A stretch of DNA of 64,000 nt from Promethearchaeota archaeon (GCA_019058365.1 JAHPZE010000008.1:32001-96000), one strand, 5' to 3'; shown: positions 30,521 through 37,128, counted from the first letter of the stretch. Numbers and translations are program-made. The notes: generated from the letters alone by a model not told the origin.

Positions 30521-30901
30521 ATGGAGAATCAACCCAACCTTGAGGAATTAAAACCTAAAATAAAACTAGGTATGAAATTTTGGTTGGAATTTGAGAATAA
30601 AAGTATATTGGGTTCTGGATGGGCGAAGTTGCTAAAAAATATTGAGAAAAATAAAGAAGGTTCATTATCTCACGCAGCAAAAGAGTGTAATTATTCTTAT
30701 AAATACGCGTGGAATATACTAAAAAGAATAGAAAAAAGAACAGGTAAAGCTATAGTGATAACGGGTAAAGGAGGTCGTGGTGGAGGTGGTTGGGTAAAAT
30801 TAACCGATTGGGGGCTATATCTCTTAGAAATTTATCAGAAGTATCTAAATGAAATAACAAAAATTGAAAAAAAACTTGGAGAGACAATGAAGATCAGCTA
30901 A
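30521..30901 (+). CDS. ModE-family HTH transcriptional regulator
   Basis: GSLSHAAKECNYSYKYAW...GGRGGGG...LT..G. Confidence 0.88.
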   Translation: MENQPNLEELKPKIKLGMKFWLEFENKSILGSGWAKLLKNIEKNKEGSLSHAAKECNYSYKYAWNILKRIEKRTGKAIVITGKGGRGGGGWVKLTDWGLYLLEIYQKYLNEITKIEKKLGETMKIS

Positions 30902-30992: not shown

Positions 30993-31418
30993 ATGGAAGA
31001 CCGTTTAACGCAATTAAGTAAAATAAAAGTTTGCGATATTATGATCAAAGATCCACTTTTTACTTTTCCAAAAGAAAAAATCAGTACCACTGAACTTTTA
31101 ATGGTCAGGAAAAATATTGGTGGACTTCCTGTTGTGAAAGATCGTAAAGATAGACAACTTATTGGTATTATTACACAAAGAGATATACGTTTGGCTAGAT
31201 TTGCGATGAGTTTAGATTCACCGAATACAACTGTGAAGGATTTAATGACACCAGAACCTATTGTTGTAAAAGAAAATAACACATTAAAAGAGGTTTTAGA
31301 AATAATGTTCGATAATAATATTCAAAGACTTCCTGTTGTAGATGAAAAAAAAGAGCTAGTTGGCTTAGTTATACAAAATGGAATCTTAAAAACTCTTCTT
31401 GAATTTTTTCAAAAATAA
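30993..31418 (+). CDS. CBS-domain pair protein
   Basis: V.DIM...IGGLPVV...LIGIIT.RD twice. Confidence 0.9.
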   Translation: MEDRLTQLSKIKVCDIMIKDPLFTFPKEKISTTELLMVRKNIGGLPVVKDRKDRQLIGIITQRDIRLARFAMSLDSPNTTVKDLMTPEPIVVKENNTLKEVLEIMFDNNIQRLPVVDEKKELVGLVIQNGILKTLLEFFQK

Positions 31419-31520
31419 TTAAAAGAATTCTTATTTATTAATTTTATAAAAAAATTATAAAAATCATTAATTTTAGATTATTAATAAGAAAAAGCAAATA
31501 AATTGCATTATTGATAGAAA

Positions 31521-33035
31521 ATGGCACTACCTTTTCCTGGCACACCAATTATAATTGATATTGGTTCAGCATATGTTAAAATAGGATTTTCGGGAGAGCC
31601 TGGACCAAGATTTGTTTTTCCTTGCATTACAGGAACTGAAAAATATAAATCTGTGATGGTTGATGTAAGTGCTAGAAGTATATATGTTGGAAATGATGTA
31701 TCTCGAATGCGTGGCGTTCTTAAAATAAAACACCCTATAGCAAGGGGGGAGATCATGGATTGGGAGAGTTTCTATGAAGTATTAAATTATATTTTTTATT
31801 CACTGCTTAGAATAGAGAATCTATCGGATTATCCTGTATTTTATTGTGAATCTCCTTTTATGCATAGAGATACTAAGGAGTATATTGCACGACTTTTCTT
31901 TGAAACTCATCAAGTTAAAAGTTTAGTTATGATGCCAACACCGTTATTGTCTATGTTTAGCGTTGGATTGACAACTGCGCTCGTAATTGAAAGTGGAGAT
32001 GGAATGACATGGATAGTTCCAATAGTTAATGGACAGATGGTCCAACATGCCGTTCAGAAACTTCCACTAGCGGGTGTAGACGTTAACCAAAACTTAAAAA
32101 GTCTCCTAATGAGAGAAGGTGTAAGTATTTCTTCTAGTGCTGCTGATGAGATTCTTCAAGAGATAAAAGAAAAGAATTGCTATTTTGTATTGGATCCTAA
32201 TAAACCTTCTACAACAGGAGAAATGTTTAATGTTCCGATGCCTGATGGCTCAAGCATCAACGTTCCGACTTATATTCTCTATCAAGCTCCAGAAGTTTTA
32301 TTTAATCCATCTATGTTAGGCTATACAAATATAATGAATATAACTCAAGCAGTTATTGCTTGTCTAAGAGCAATAGATAATCAATATTGGCATGATCTTT
32401 TATCACATATAGTATTTTCCGGAGGAAATCTTTCCTATAGTGGCTTTCAAGAACGCTTTGAATCAGAATTGGATCCACTTCTTTCTCAACTAGGTAGGAT
32501 TCCTAAACCCGTCGCACCTCTCTCTGCAATGAAAAGCGAATTAATCAAATTACAAGCTGTTGAAATCTCAAAGAAAAAAGAAGATACTTGCCCACATTGT
32601 GGCAGTTTAATAAACTTAAATGATGGAAAAGAATTATGTCCTTCATGTGGAGGAGTATTAATTTTACCTGAAATAAAGATTGGTGCATTAAATCAAAATA
32701 ATAAAAAAAGAAATAAATGCCCACATTGCTTAAGAGAAATAACTGATATATCTTCACTTTTCTGTCCTTATTGTGGAGCATCTATGGAAAATTTAGAAAA
32801 AACTCAAATCCCTGAAGAAATTTCAAAAAAATCACCTGCTCAAGAATTTTCTGAATTCATGGAATCTGCTAATAAAATAATCAAATTTTTTGTACCCGAT
32901 AACCTTCAATTTGCTATTTTTACTGGTGCGGCTATTTTAGGAAGTTTACCTTCTTTCCAACAGATATTTATTACTTATGAACAATTCCAAACAAATAGGG
33001 ATCTGTTATATAGAGATATTAGCGAGATTCTTTAA
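31521..33035 (+). CDS. Actin-related protein with an inserted double zinc ribbon
   Basis: IDIGSAYVKIGFSGE..PRFVFP, ESGDG, LAG.D, EIKEK.CY, PE.LFNPS, SGGN, GAAILGSL.SFQQ; insert with CPHCG/CPSCG/CPHC/CPYCG. Confidence 0.93.
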   Translation: MALPFPGTPIIIDIGSAYVKIGFSGEPGPRFVFPCITGTEKYKSVMVDVSARSIYVGNDVSRMRGVLKIKHPIARGEIMDWESFYEVLNYIFYSLLRIENLSDYPVFYCESPFMHRDTKEYIARLFFETHQVKSLVMMPTPLLSMFSVGLTTALVIESGDGMTWIVPIVNGQMVQHAVQKLPLAGVDVNQNLKSLLMREGVSISSSAADEILQEIKEKNCYFVLDPNKPSTTGEMFNVPMPDGSSINVPTYILYQAPEVLFNPSMLGYTNIMNITQAVIACLRAIDNQYWHDLLSHIVFSGGNLSYSGFQERFESELDPLLSQLGRIPKPVAPLSAMKSELIKLQAVEISKKKEDTCPHCGSLINLNDGKELCPSCGGVLILPEIKIGALNQNNKKRNKCPHCLREITDISSLFCPYCGASMENLEKTQIPEEISKKSPAQEFSEFMESANKIIKFFVPDNLQFAIFTGAAILGSLPSFQQIFITYEQFQTNRDLLYRDISEIL

Positions 33036-33189: not shown

Positions 33190-34290
33190 TTGAAGCATAA
33201 ATATCGGAGTTTAATCATTAGTACAATTGTAATATTTTTGGCTATAAATGCAATCCCGAGTGCCTTGGCAAAAACACGGCAGTATTATTTAACTAGTTTT
33301 ATATATAAAAATGAAATCCAAGGTGAGGGTTTTACTAATGCTATTGATAGCGATGATAGCATATCTTTTGAAGCAACAACTTATGCATTAGACATATTAA
33401 ATTATTTTGCAGTAAATCCACATAATATTGAAACACTTAAAAGCACTTTAGAAGATGACATTGAGGATATGTTTAATAATTATGAAGAAAATTTATATGA
33501 TTTATTCTTTTTAATGAAATCGCTAAATATTTTAGATCAGGATTATGAAATTAATCTTAATTTAGAAAATAAAATTTATGAATTTCTAAATGATACTGAA
33601 CAAATAACAGGTGGATTTTCTTATTCAAACACTACCGACTTAGTTAGTTTAACTTCAACCTATTACTGTATTCAACTTTTTTCATTAATAGAAAAACCAA
33701 TAGAAAATATTACAATACATAAGAACTGGGTTCTTTCATGTTATAATAGTGATGGTGGATATGGAAGCAATCAAAGTCTTCCTTCTACTATGGTAGATAC
33801 CTGTTTTGCAGTTTTTATTTTAGAGGAATTAGGAGAAATAGAAGCTTTAAATAGTGTTAATAAAACAATAGGGTATCTCCAATCTTTCTATGTTATAGAT
33901 TCTGCGGATCTTGACAATTATGGAGGATATATGCCAGATGATTATGCTTCAATTGCTTTGTTGAGTAGCACATATTATTGTGTAAAAGCAGTTTCTTTAA
34001 TTGATAGTACTAAATTATTTAAAAATACTATAAAAACATGGGTGTTAGCACGACAGAATTTCATGGATGGTGGATTTGCAGAGAACACTGAGGGATATCA
34101 ACAAAAAACTTCCTCAATTGTAGCCAGCTATTATGCATTTGAGACATTAAAAATATTAGGTTCTTTATCTAGTTTCCTCAGTGAAATTTGGATGGTAGAA
34201 TTTAATTACTGGATCTTAGGAATAGTTCTTTTTTCTATTGGATTAGTTATTGTAGCAGCTATATTTCTTTGGAGAAGAACAAGAATATAA
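33190..34290 (+). CDS. Secreted, C-terminally anchored prenyltransferase/squalene-oxidase-repeat (alpha/alpha toroid) protein
   Basis: Signal peptide; repeats WVL..Q..DGGF...STYY.V..L; C-terminal TM followed by RR. Confidence 0.8.
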   Translation: MKHKYRSLIISTIVIFLAINAIPSALAKTRQYYLTSFIYKNEIQGEGFTNAIDSDDSISFEATTYALDILNYFAVNPHNIETLKSTLEDDIEDMFNNYEENLYDLFFLMKSLNILDQDYEINLNLENKIYEFLNDTEQITGGFSYSNTTDLVSLTSTYYCIQLFSLIEKPIENITIHKNWVLSCYNSDGGYGSNQSLPSTMVDTCFAVFILEELGEIEALNSVNKTIGYLQSFYVIDSADLDNYGGYMPDDYASIALLSSTYYCVKAVSLIDSTKLFKNTIKTWVLARQNFMDGGFAENTEGYQQKTSSIVASYYAFETLKILGSLSSFLSEIWMVEFNYWILGIVLFSIGLVIVAAIFLWRRTRI

Positions 34291-35457: not shown

Positions 35458-35913
35458 ATGGCAATTCTTGAAGTAGGAATTAATTTGGGAATGCGAAATT
35501 TAGTTGAAATTAAGTATTATTCATCTTCAGACAATTTATTAGATCCAAACTTACGTGCTGGATTTTTAACTGCACTTGAAAGTTTTACTACTGAAGTATT
35601 TGGCGATGATATTTCAATAATCAGTCTGGCTTCCTTTAAATTAGTTTGCTATTGCGAGATGATTCAATTACCTAATGATGATGTTGAAAATAAACAACCT
35701 TTATTATCATATGCAATAATAGAAAAAGGAACAGATGCATCAATAGTAAAAGATCAATTAAATCAAATTTTGTCCTATTTTCTCAATCGATATCCACTTA
35801 ATGATATATTTTCGAAAAAACCTAAATATTTTAAGCAATTTGAAAGTCGAATTAATGAAACATTAGGAGATTTAAAACTTAAAACAGAAGATAGATTTCG
35901 TTCTTTATTTTAA
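35458..35913 (+). CDS. Longin-like domain protein
   Basis: DPNLRAGFLTALESF..E......I..I.....K pattern typical of Asgard longin/sigma-adaptin-like proteins. Confidence 0.65.
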   Translation: MAILEVGINLGMRNLVEIKYYSSSDNLLDPNLRAGFLTALESFTTEVFGDDISIISLASFKLVCYCEMIQLPNDDVENKQPLLSYAIIEKGTDASIVKDQLNQILSYFLNRYPLNDIFSKKPKYFKQFESRINETLGDLKLKTEDRFRSLF

Positions 35914-35934: not shown

Positions 35935-37128
35935 TTGAGTTCCAATTTACCTCCTCTAGCTAAAGCTAAATATCAAGAGTATCTAGATGCTGGGGCTTTA
36001 GAAGATAGAATCAAAAAATTAGAGGAATTTTTGTCTCTAGTTCCTAAACATAAAGCAACTGAAAAAATAGTTGCGCTTAATAAATCCCGCTTAGCAAAGA
36101 TGAAGCGTGAATTAGAGAATCGTAAGCAAAAACAAAAAATTACACAAAAAATTATTAGTCCTTTTTCAATAAAAAAGGAAGGAATTCAAGTGATATTAAT
36201 CAGCAGTTTTCAAACTCCTGGAGTCGGAAAAACATCACTTCTGAATTTTCTAACTGGAGCTGCAGAAGAAAAAATTGGTAAATTTACAGCTTTACCAGAA
36301 ATTGGAATTTATCAATATCAAAAAATCCGGTTTCAAATAGTCGACATGCCTTCCATCATGGAGGGTGCCTCTGATGGAGTTGGAAATGGAAAAGAAATCC
36401 TATCACAACTTCGAGCAGCCGATTTATTATGTTTTTGTATAGACTTATCAACAAATTTTGAAGAACAAATGAATTTATTATTAAATGAATTATCTAAAGC
36501 TGATATACGATTAAATGTGTCACCACCACCTTTAATTATTGAAAAAACCGGAGCAAATAAAATTCAAGTGCTCTATCTGACTAAAGAGGCAAAGGAGATT
36601 GAAGGATTTGATGTATTAACAGAAGAAATAAAAGAGATTATATATGAAAATGGGATTCGTAATGGTATTGTAAAAATTTATGGTGAAATAACTCTTGACA
36701 ATGTGATAGACGTTTTAACTCCTTCTGTCGTATATAAAAAAGTAATTTTACTAGGAACTAAGGGAGATCTTTCTCATACTCAAGATATTTTTGAAAATTT
36801 AAAAAGTAAGTATTCAGATAAATTTCCTATAATTTTAGGGACAAGTTATCAAAAAGAGAATTTTCCTAGAGATTTTGGTGAAATAATCTTAAAATTCTTA
36901 AAGAAAATTAAAATTTATACTATGAGTGGTGGAATTGTTGCTGAACAACCATTGATAATGGATGAAAATCCTACTGTTAAGGAAGTTGCATTAAAAATTC
37001 ATAGAAGTTTTTATGATTCTTTCGACCATGCTATAATAATACGAGAAGGAGAACGTCAAAAACGTAAAAAAGTTGGTTTAGATTACATTTTAGCGGACAA
37101 TGATATAGTAGAAATACACTTAACTTAA
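35935..37128 (+). CDS. DRG/OBG-family GTPase with TGS domain
   Basis: VPKHK.TE, PGVGKTS, FT, DMP...G, TKGD, C-terminal TGS (A.KIH...VGLDY.L.D.D.VE). Confidence 0.88.
   Translation: MSSNLPPLAKAKYQEYLDAGALEDRIKKLEEFLSLVPKHKATEKIVALNKSRLAKMKRELENRKQKQKITQKIISPFSIKKEGIQVILISSFQTPGVGKTSLLNFLTGAAEEKIGKFTALPEIGIYQYQKIRFQIVDMPSIMEGASDGVGNGKEILSQLRAADLLCFCIDLSTNFEEQMNLLLNELSKADIRLNVSPPPLIIEKTGANKIQVLYLTKEAKEIEGFDVLTEEIKEIIYENGIRNGIVKIYGEITLDNVIDVLTPSVVYKKVILLGTKGDLSHTQDIFENLKSKYSDKFPIILGTSYQKENFPRDFGEIILKFLKKIKIYTMSGGIVAEQPLIMDENPTVKEVALKIHRSFYDSFDHAIIIREGERQKRKKVGLDYILADNDIVEIHLT

What the first reader, a model, noticed from the sequence alone, without database searches (positions are those of the whole stretch)
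31521..33035. Actin-related protein with a double zinc-ribbon insert and substituted hydrolysis residues
Seen: a complete actin fold with a normal-length D-loop (KSVMVDVSAR). A ~125-aa insert (about 32490-32880) with four CxxC pairs replaces the short actin 321-325 loop before the IIAPPER-equivalent strand. By manual alignment Q137 is T, H161 is W and H73 is R, while D11, K18, xSGDG and SGG are kept. Known: Arp2 and Arp3 carry inserts in this same subdomain-3 loop, and Q137/H161 drive ATP hydrolysis. Inference: an ATP-binding, hydrolysis-poor Arp-like adaptor, nucleator or capper that links actin to partners through zinc ribbons, distinct from the conserved lokiactin.
Basis: partly seen in the sequence, partly recalled or inferred. 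Interest (0 to 1): 0.8.

Follow-up and report, generated by a model that had tools for sequence, protein, structure and literature searches.

The report
Asgard actin-related protein with zinc-ribbon insert
This is a real, strongly conserved actin-like protein of Loki-type Asgard archaea that carries two small zinc-binding modules inserted next to a filament-contact loop and has lost actin's ATP-splitting residues; it is probably an accessory factor of the archaeal actin cytoskeleton whose architecture has not been described or tested.

Summary
Window 31521-33035 (+) encodes an intact 504-aa protein with a complete actin fold (Pfam Actin 3.9e-66; model TM about 0.90 to actin). A 127-aa insert (residues 326-452, nt 32496-32876) carries four CxxC pairs. 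Q137 is T, H161 is W and H73 is R, while the nucleotide-binding motifs are kept. One correction: the insert sits after the retained 321-325 loop and does not replace it.

It is not a chimera. Orthologues with the insert at the same site occur in almost every genome of one Lokiarchaeia order, closed genomes included, and form one 100/100-supported clade apart from lokiactin. By an exact primer match, the Ca. Lokiarchaeum ossiferum orthologue is the published 'ARP' UYP44711.1. No paper found mentions the zinc ribbons.

Linker 1 and ribbon 1 evolve almost as slowly as the actin core. The D-loop face is well conserved; barbed-face and lateral contacts are not.

My best reading (inferred) is a hydrolysis-poor, non-polymerising subunit that docks on lokiactin by its pointed face and presents a tethered zinc-ribbon platform.

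The gene sits beside a surface-anchored prenyltransferase-like protein gene throughout the order.

This scan noted the same protein in several other genomes, and one follow-up reached a similar verdict.

The parts
31521..33035 (+). Whole gene: 504-aa zinc-ribbon actin-related protein (P0001), stop codon included
   Evidence: ORF list and translation; Pfam Actin + DZR; orthologues 35-98% identical across one order
31521..32495 (+). Actin core, N-terminal part (residues 1-325: subdomains 1, 2, 4 and most of 3), ending in the retained contact loop L321-S-Q-L-G325
   Evidence: HMMER alignment to actin 8-320; AF2 pLDDT 80-95; Foldseek TM about 0.90 to actins; dN/dS 0.07
31638..31682 (+). D-loop region (residues 40-54, EKYKSVMVDVSARSI): K41 and Y42 invariant, lokiactin-like pattern
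   Evidence: Residue table and conservation: mean top-residue frequency 0.82 against 0.72 overall; 7/12 positions equal the lokiactin consensus
31743..31745 (+). R75 at the position of actin H73 (R in 48/48 family members)
31938..31940 (+). T140 at the position of catalytic Q137 (family: T32, S14, A2; never Q)
32010..32012 (+). W164 at the position of catalytic H161 (family: W34, F4, T4, Y2, others; H kept in the L. ossiferum orthologue)
32496..32582 (+). Insert, linker 1 with leading strand (residues 326-354), basic, strongly constrained
   Evidence: dN/dS 0.08; low AF2 confidence at 333-352; alignment A1
32583..32654 (+). Zinc ribbon 1 (residues 355-378; D355, C357, C360, G361, C373, C376 invariant), present in every family member
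   Evidence: Pfam Zn_ribbon_3/DZR; invariant columns; present in one-ribbon lineages; dN/dS 0.15
32655..32714 (+). Linker 2 (residues 379-398), basic, variable in length and sequence
   Evidence: dN/dS 0.65; pLDDT below 50
32715..32783 (+). Zinc ribbon 2 (residues 399-421; C400, C403, C415, C418 in at least 90% of members), absent in family f4 and in L. ossiferum
   Evidence: Pfam DUF7575/Zn_Ribbon_1; dN/dS 0.29
32784..32876 (+). Acidic tail of the insert (residues 422-452) with the nearly invariant E442-F443 motif (nt 32844-32849)
   Evidence: E442/F443 in at least 90% of members; short helix 442-445 at low confidence; dN/dS 0.54 overall
32877..33032 (+). Actin core, C-terminal part (residues 453-504 = actin 326-375 equivalents), including groove residues L473, L476, F479, I482
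   Evidence: HMMER alignment to actin 326-364; dN/dS 0.06
33190..34290 (+). Conserved neighbour: 366-aa protein with signal peptide, prenyltransferase-beta-like alpha-alpha toroid, C-terminal membrane helix and short basic tail
   Evidence: Pfam Prenyltrans 6.5e-16; AF2 pLDDT 88; Foldseek best matches are RabGGTase/GGTase3/FTase beta subunits; adjacent and co-directional with the Arp gene across the order
30521..30901 (+). Conserved upstream neighbour: 126-aa ModE-N-terminal-type winged-helix protein
   Evidence: TIGR00637 ModE_repress 1.2e-17, below cut-off; syntenic even in genomes where the Arp is 35-37% identical

Best explanation
SHOWN: the gene encodes an intact, vertically inherited actin-family protein (an 'Asgard ARP'; the Ca. 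L. ossiferum orthologue is UYP44711.1) found in essentially every genome of one Lokiarchaeia order. It has a complete actin fold with conserved nucleotide-binding loops, but the water-activating residues Q137 and H161 and the sensor H73 are replaced. A 127-aa module is inserted directly after the subdomain-3 loop (actin 321-325) that makes the longitudinal filament contact. The module consists of a constrained leading segment plus zinc ribbon 1 (universal), a variable basic linker, zinc ribbon 2 (most lineages) and an acidic tail with a conserved Glu-Phe motif. INFERRED: the protein binds ATP or ADP but turns it over slowly or not at all, and it does not build its own filament. It uses its conserved pointed face (a lokiactin-like D-loop and the invariant Pro-Asp-Gly loop of subdomain 4) to dock onto the barbed-end face or groove of lokiactin. 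There it would act as a terminal or accessory subunit (capper or end-adaptor). The flexibly tethered zinc-ribbon module, sitting at its own barbed face, would recruit a still unknown partner.
For: Fold and motifs. Catalytic substitutions are family-wide while D11, G13, K18, G156, G158, K213, E214, G301 and G302 are invariant. Insert position is next to the longitudinal contact loop: with PMC7247010 for the actin 321-325 / 241-245 contact. Order-wide conservation, single clade and vertical pattern. The insert is under selection (linker 1 dN/dS 0.08, ribbon 1 0.15, against core 0.06-0.07). Asymmetric conservation: D-loop 0.82 and subdomain-2 residues 61-65 1.00, against W-loop 0.57, subdomain-3 residues 283-294 0.54 and lateral contacts 0.51-0.69, whereas lokiactin keeps all of these at 0.73-0.98. 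Lokiactin is present in the same genome in two copies. The L. ossiferum orthologue was among the ARPs assayed by RT-qPCR, for which lokiactin transcripts were severalfold higher (PMC9834061). That is the pattern expected of a substoichiometric accessory factor.
Against: No binding, zinc content or ATPase has been measured for any member. The conservation asymmetry is indirect: the groove helices (139-148 and 346-355) are also conserved, and poorly conserved lateral contacts would also weaken stable seating at a two-stranded filament end. The insert's linkers are long enough to swing aside, so it need not block subunit addition. A Thr or Ser at position 137 might still support slow hydrolysis. 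The L. ossiferum orthologue keeps H161 and some lineages replace D157 by Cys or Thr, so nucleotide handling may differ between lineages. AF2 places the insert at low confidence (pLDDT 30-66).
Confidence: 0.45

Rival explanations
1. Cytoskeleton-to-envelope linker. The zinc-ribbon Arp works together with the adjacent, order-specific surface-anchored toroid protein and couples lokiactin filaments to a membrane or surface complex, for example in protrusions or adhesion sites. The acidic, zinc-ribbon insert would contact the short basic cytoplasmic tail or an associated membrane partner.
For: The two genes are adjacent and co-directional in families f1, f2, f3 and most of f4, even where they are only 25-37% identical to the window's copies. 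Strong matches to both genes are confined to the same order. Two fairly complete genomes (G147 100%, G232 92%) lack both. The neighbour has a signal peptide, a C-terminal membrane helix and a conserved basic C-terminus ending in ...RRI.
Against: The cytoplasmic tail is only about 5-7 residues, and basic residues after a membrane helix are expected anyway. FolD and a ModE-type HTH gene belong to the same conserved block, so synteny here is not specific to function. Four genomes have the Arp without the neighbour. The AT-rich intergenic region of 154 nt with a T-run suggests separate transcription. Joint absence in draft genomes may be a single assembly gap.
Confidence: 0.15
2. A specialised self-polymerising actin. 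The protein forms its own filaments, or co-polymerises along lokiactin filaments, decorated on the outside by zinc ribbons.
For: Complete four-subdomain fold; normal-length D-loop; hydrophobic plug of normal length with F262, P264 and G268 kept; invariant P243-D244-G245; the 321-325 loop is retained before the insert; groove residues L346, L349 and F352 are kept.
Against: W-loop, subdomain-3 residues 283-294 and lateral contact residues are less conserved than the protein average, unlike lokiactin. The catalytic residues that polymerising actins conserve are lost. Y169, which packs on the incoming D-loop, varies (Q/E/K/T). A 127-aa module sits at the longitudinal interface.
Confidence: 0.15
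3. A non-cytoskeletal Arp, comparable to the eukaryotic nuclear Arps. It would be a nucleotide-bound scaffold subunit of another complex, with the zinc ribbons binding nucleic acid or a protein unrelated to actin.
For: Loss of hydrolysis residues and of filament-contact conservation is typical of scaffold Arps (established knowledge). Zinc ribbons often bind nucleic acids or proteins. Both linkers are basic (sequence). There is a weak hit to a 'Zn-ribbon RNA-binding protein' model (far below cut-off).
Against: The ribbons themselves and the tail are acidic. The D-loop is highly conserved and lokiactin-like, which is not expected if actin contacts were abandoned. No chromatin or RNA gene is in the conserved neighbourhood.
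Confidence: 0.15
4. Artefact: an assembly chimera, a mis-called gene or a decaying pseudogene.
For: None found.
Against: The same open frame and architecture occur in about 150 genomes, including single-contig ones (G135, G138, G143, G187, G188). dN/dS is well below 1 in the core and in ribbon 1. Short contigs 93-97% identical to the gene, some covering the insert, are present in two metatranscriptome libraries (weak).
Confidence: 0.01

Closest known systems
Ca. Lokiarchaeum ossiferum ARP, GenBank UYP44711.1 (Rodrigues-Oliveira et al. 2022, PMC9834061)
   Same: Orthologue. The published RT-qPCR primer 361F matches exactly inside the orthologous gene of the 6.04-Mb single-contig genome G138. 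It has the same insert site, a zinc ribbon and the same neighbours (HTH, toroid, FolD).
   Different: 37% identical. It has one zinc ribbon instead of two, keeps His at position 161 and carries an extra Lys- and Glu-rich segment. The paper treats it only as one of three 'ARPs' in a tree and an RT-qPCR panel, and never mentions zinc or an insert.
Lokiactin (conserved Asgard actin)
   Same: Same fold and family (PF00022). Similar D-loop pattern (K-Y-x-x-V/I-M-x-D-V). Present in the same genome.
   Different: Only 36% identical to the genome's lokiactin and in a separate clade. Lokiactin keeps Q137, H161 and H73 and all filament contacts and has no insert.
Insert-less Asgard ARP 'paralogue 4' of the same genome (L004, 373 aa)
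   Same: Nearest relative in the trees: the split {zinc-ribbon clade + paralogue 4} against the rest has support 96/82. It also lacks Q137 (Asp) and H161 (Arg) and has Glu at position 154.
   Different: No insert; 33% identical; a long branch, so the grouping could owe something to long-branch attraction.
Eukaryotic Arp2 and Arp3
   Same: Actin fold with lineage-specific inserts that add functions (PMC4947185). The Arp3 C-terminal tail, which occupies its own barbed-end groove, is a precedent for a barbed-face appendage that regulates activity.
   Different: Arp2 and Arp3 keep Q137 and H161 and hydrolyse ATP (my own knowledge). They act inside a seven-subunit complex, and no ARPC2 or ARPC4 homologue was found here. 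None carries a zinc ribbon.
Double zinc ribbon (Pfam DZR PF12773, Zn_ribbon_3 PF13248, DUF7575 PF24460)
   Same: Two C-x2-C ... C-x2-C knuckle pairs scoring above the curated cut-offs.
   Different: These families are usually standalone small proteins or N-terminal modules. Here the module is inserted inside an actin fold. No close standalone copy exists in this genome (best E = 1.4e-5).

Membership tests
Actin family (Pfam PF00022, ASKHA superfamily) | Profile score above the curated cut-off | tested here: met
   223.8 bits against a cut-off of 27
Actin family (Pfam PF00022, ASKHA superfamily) | Four-subdomain actin fold | tested here: met
   AF2 core pLDDT 80-95; Foldseek TM 0.90-0.91 normalised to actin chains
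Actin family (Pfam PF00022, ASKHA superfamily) | Phosphate-1, phosphate-2 and adenosine motifs | tested here: met
   D13-x-G15...K20, E157-S-G-D-G161, S300-G-G302, K216-E217; invariant or nearly so in 48 members
Lokiactin | High identity to other lokiactins (above 80%) and about 60% to eukaryotic actin; membership of the lokiactin clade | tested here: not met
   36% identical to the genome's lokiactin; separate starred clades; the lokiactin identities are
Lokiactin | Catalytic Q137 and H161 and sensor H73 retained | tested here: not met
   T140, W164, R75; lokiactin has Q, H and H in 27/27
Lokiactin | Present in all Asgard lineages | tested here: not met
   The zinc-ribbon form is confined to one order; elsewhere only lokiactin-type matches to residues 5-325
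Eukaryotic Arp2/3-type nucleator | Accessory ARPC subunits encoded in the genome | tested here: inconclusive
   No PF05856 (ARPC4) or PF04045 (ARPC2) match in a genome 100% complete by markers, but the controls contained no positive case
Eukaryotic Arp2/3-type nucleator | Retention of Q137 and H161 with ATP hydrolysis | tested here: not met
   Both are substituted; hydrolysis itself cannot be tested here
Eukaryotic Arp2/3-type nucleator | Phylogenetic placement inside the Arp2 or Arp3 clade | not tested
   No named eukaryotic Arp sequences could be obtained. The best 60 PDB sequence matches are all actins, at 203 bits or more.
Double zinc ribbon (DZR and related Pfam families) | Two pairs of CxxC knuckles scoring above the cut-off | tested here: met
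   DZR 28.0 against 27.3; Zn_ribbon_3 29.3 against 27; DUF7575 28.6 against 28.5; the Cys residues are invariant or present in at least 90% of members
Double zinc ribbon (DZR and related Pfam families) | Actual zinc binding | not testable with these tools
   Needs metal analysis of purified protein

The most novel reading that the evidence does not exclude
The zinc-ribbon Arp and its permanently adjacent, order-specific surface-anchored toroid protein form a two-component module that physically couples the lokiactin cytoskeleton to the cell surface. This would be an archaeal counterpart of actin-membrane adhesion linkers, used in the protrusions and crawling of Loki-type Asgard archaea.
Probability: 0.12. 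Interest if true: 0.85.

Novelty: new variant of a known kind. Interest (0 to 1): 0.6.

Why it matters
[quoted passage not shown] Lokiactin, profilins and gelsolins have been studied, but the 'ARPs' have only been listed. This one is conserved across a whole order that includes both cultivated model organisms of the Loki group. It is under strong selection and combines an apparently hydrolysis-dead actin fold with a tethered zinc-ribbon module at a filament-contact site. No eukaryotic Arp shows that solution. Orthologues exist in culturable strains and antibodies and cryo-ET pipelines are already in place, so its role as a filament-end factor, membrane linker or something else can be tested directly.

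Tried and rejected
1. Complex prediction of the Arp (A1) with lokiactin (A2): the tool did not fold the pair, because lokiactin was judged eukaryote-like.
2. RNA evidence: only five short contigs (151-283 nt, 93-97% identical) in two metatranscriptome libraries. These come from relatives, and DNA carry-over is not excluded. They show nothing about level, strand or operon structure.
3. ESM Atlas feature search with the insert alone: no usable hit.
4. The first numbering reference (P0316) proved to be a chimeric gene model beyond about residue 300, so the rows above 300 were discarded and redone with a clean actin.
5. The paper on Arp3 inserts (Liu et al. 2013, PMC3537046) is not held, so the claim that Arp2 and Arp3 carry inserts in this very loop stays unverified.
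6. Test of a 'two-gene cassette inserted between HTH and FolD': in four same-class outgroup genomes FolD has other neighbours and no HTH nearby, so there is no evidence for that scenario.
7. Search for a standalone source of the insert in the genome: only weak DZR-type matches.
8. ARPC2 and ARPC4 searches: negative but without a positive control.
9. NCBIfam has no model for the family; the crenactin hit scores 25.6 bits against a cut-off of 630.
10. Placement relative to eukaryotic Arp1-10 was not possible because no named Arp sequences were available.
11. Model coordinates are not exposed to scripts, so the insert's geometry relative to a filament could not be measured.

Full report
THE OBSERVATION

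Window 31521-33035 (+) is a single open frame of 504 codons starting with ATG. Pfam finds Actin at E = 3.9e-66 (223.8 bits) in two stretches. Three zinc-ribbon families score above their curated cut-offs at residues 356-421: DZR, Zn_ribbon_3 and DUF7575.

Against solved structures the best matches are actins (best 2e-66). Yeast actin residues 8-320 align to query 10-320, and actin 326-364 aligns to query 453-491. An alignment with a clean 375-residue actin places the extra segment between actin positions 325 and 326. That is query residues 326-452, 127 residues, nt 32496-32876.

The four CxxC pairs are C357/C360, C373/C376, C400/C403 and C415/C418. Q137 is T140, H161 is W164 and H73 is R75. 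D11, K18, the xSGDG loop and SGG are kept. The D-loop is one residue shorter than actin's.

One correction is needed. The 321-325 loop is retained (LSQLG here, LPQLG as the family consensus, with Leu and Gly in 47 of 48 members), and the insert follows it rather than replacing it.

IS IT REAL?

A word-indexed search found more than 120 protein clusters, 62-98% identical and all 503-510 residues long, with Actin plus zinc-ribbon domains.

I then searched 400 genomes of the phylum:
- Full-length matches occur in nearly all 134 genomes of the window's family (f1).
- Copies 37-48% identical, in long open frames, occur in the three other families of the same order.
- Beyond the order, only lokiactin-type matches to residues 5-325 appear.

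The divergent copies carry the insert at the same position. Several of them lie in single-contig genomes. An assembly chimera is therefore excluded.

A published RT-qPCR primer for GenBank UYP44711.1 matches exactly inside the orthologue of the 6.04-Mb single-contig genome G138. That identifies G138 as Ca. Lokiarchaeum ossiferum, and the family as one of its three published 'ARPs' (PMC9834061). That paper placed the protein in a tree and assayed it by RT-qPCR alongside the other actin homologues, with lokiactin transcripts severalfold higher. It contains no mention of zinc or of an insert. No other paper in the library cites the accession. Searches combining Asgard, actin and zinc ribbon found nothing relevant.

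ANATOMY

The AlphaFold2 model built on a 38-sequence alignment has a confident actin core (pLDDT 80-95). It superposes on actin chains with TM 0.90-0.91 normalised to actin.

The insert is modelled as two small knuckles (pLDDT about 60-66) joined by low-confidence linkers (333-352, 381-397, 423-451). A short helix lies at 442-445.

Conservation across the order:
- Ribbon 1 is universal: D355, C357, C360, G361, C373 and C376 are invariant.
- Ribbon 2 is present in at least 90% of members, but is missing in family f4 and in L. ossiferum.
- A Glu-Phe motif (E442-F443) in the acidic tail is nearly invariant.

Region-wise dN/dS among 13 orthologues from the genus and family:
- Actin core: 0.06-0.07
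- Linker 1: 0.08
- Ribbon 1: 0.15
- Ribbon 2: 0.29
- Tail: 0.54
- Linker 2: 0.65

Synonymous sites are near saturation, so only the ranking should be trusted. The leading segment and ribbon 1 are constrained about as strongly as the actin fold. Linker 2 behaves as a spacer.

NUCLEOTIDE SITE

In 48 family members D11, G13, K18, G156, G158, K213, E214, G301 and G302 are invariant. This supports retained nucleotide binding.

Other positions differ from actin:
- Position 137 is Thr (32), Ser (14) or Ala (2), and never Gln.
- Position 161 is Trp (34), or Phe, Thr, Tyr or another residue.
- Position 73 is Arg in all 48.
- D154 is Glu in 45.
- Residues of the phosphate-release and sensing network (N111, R177, D179, R183) are replaced.

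Lokiactin keeps all of these. That Q137 and H161 position the attacking water is established knowledge; structures of Q137A mutant actin appear among the fold matches. 'Hydrolysis-poor' is therefore a sound inference, but it remains untested.

WHICH FACES ARE CONSTRAINED?

Actin residues 321-325 contact residues 241-245 of the next subunit along the filament strand (PMC7247010). The insert therefore sits at the barbed face, beside a longitudinal contact.

Mean top-residue frequency within the family, against 0.72 for all aligned positions:
- D-loop: 0.82. It matches the lokiactin consensus at 7 of 12 positions, and K41 and Y42 are invariant.
- Subdomain-2 residues 61-65: 1.00
- P243-D244-G245: invariant
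- W-loop: 0.57
- Subdomain-3 residues 283-294: 0.54
- Lateral contacts: 0.51-0.69

In lokiactin all of these sets score 0.73-0.98. I read this as follows. The pointed face is used, most simply to enter the barbed-end groove of lokiactin. The protein's own barbed and lateral faces are not held to filament geometry. This favours an end-binding or accessory subunit over a self-polymer. The argument is indirect.

RELATIVES

The genome has six actin-family genes:
- Two lokiactins, 81-99% identical to other Asgard lokiactins and about 60% to eukaryotic actin.
- This protein.
- Three other ARPs.

In a careful maximum-likelihood tree (LG+C20 PMSF, 48 rows) the zinc-ribbon proteins form a 100/100 clade. 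Its internal order follows the genome families, which indicates vertical descent. A 96/82 split groups the clade with insert-less paralogue 4, which also lacks Q137 and H161. If that grouping is real, loss of the catalytic pair preceded the insertion. Long branches call for caution. Placement among eukaryotic Arps could not be tested.

No ARPC2 or ARPC4 homologue was found, although that search had no positive control. NCBIfam has no model for the family.

NEIGHBOURHOOD

A block of four genes lies on one strand: a ModE-type HTH protein, the Arp, a 366-residue protein and FolD. The block is conserved even in L. ossiferum-type genomes.

The 366-residue neighbour has these features:
- A signal peptide, a C-terminal membrane helix and a conserved basic tail.
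- A confident alpha-alpha toroid fold (pLDDT 88) most like protein prenyltransferase beta subunits.
- No invariant Cys or His, so it is not a zinc-dependent prenyltransferase.

Strong matches to this neighbour are confined to the same order, and they lie next to the Arp gene almost everywhere.

This is suggestive of a functional link, with caveats:
- FolD shares the block.
- The cytoplasmic tail is tiny.
- The intergenic regions look like separate promoters.
- Outgroup genomes show no ancestral HTH-FolD pair.

VERDICT

This is a genuine, order-wide, selected actin-related protein with an undescribed zinc-ribbon insertion, and a new variant of a known kind. The mechanism is inferred, not shown. 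I take it to be a nucleotide-bound, hydrolysis-poor, non-polymerising subunit that docks on lokiactin by its pointed face and offers a tethered zinc-ribbon platform.

The same protein was flagged by this scan in several other genomes. One earlier follow-up (e1-5081915) reached a similar reading. The checks reported here were made independently on this window.

Noticed in passing
window 33190-34290 (+): A 366-aa protein with a signal peptide, a prenyltransferase-beta-like alpha-alpha toroid without the zinc ligands, a C-terminal membrane helix and a conserved basic C-terminus (...RRI). Strong matches are confined to the same order, and it lies next to the zinc-ribbon Arp gene almost everywhere.
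   Followed up: yes
window 30521-30901 (+): A 126-aa ModE-N-terminal-type winged-helix protein (TIGR00637 1.2e-17, below cut-off) conserved upstream of the Arp gene even in distant genomes of the order. In this family a CBS-pair protein (30993-31418) is wedged between the two.
   Followed up: partly
window 35458-35913 (+) and 35935-37128 (+): A 151-aa protein with no Pfam or NCBIfam match lies directly upstream of a DRG/Obg-type GTPase with a TGS domain. The pair is syntenic in family f1 (65-88% identical). It may be a small GTPase-partner pair of the kind counted among Asgard eukaryotic signature proteins.
   Followed up: no
G000 contigs C39 (L001), C34 (L002), C29 (L003), C16 (L004), C40 (L006): The genome has two lokiactin genes and three further insert-less ARPs. 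Paralogue 4 (L004) has Asp at position 137 and Arg at 161; paralogue 3 keeps Q137 but has Lys at 161.
   Followed up: partly
proteins P0129, P0131, P0133, P0138 (representative search): Proteins of 742-895 aa of unknown origin, each giving two matched actin stretches in Pfam (E 1e-148 to 1e-200), so apparently tandem double-actin proteins or fused gene models.
   Followed up: partly
L021/L031 (G138 = Ca. L. ossiferum), L019/L020/L026 (family f4): These orthologues have a single zinc ribbon. The L. ossiferum copy keeps His at position 161. Family f3 copies replace D157 by Cys or Thr and add a Lys- and Glu-rich segment (DRKEKKLLKKT) after the ribbons.
   Followed up: partly
window 31508-31756 (-) and 32545-32781 (-): Antisense ORFs of 82 and 78 aa lie inside the Arp gene. 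They have low-complexity, AT-driven sequences and no support, and are most likely mechanical ORFs.
   Followed up: no
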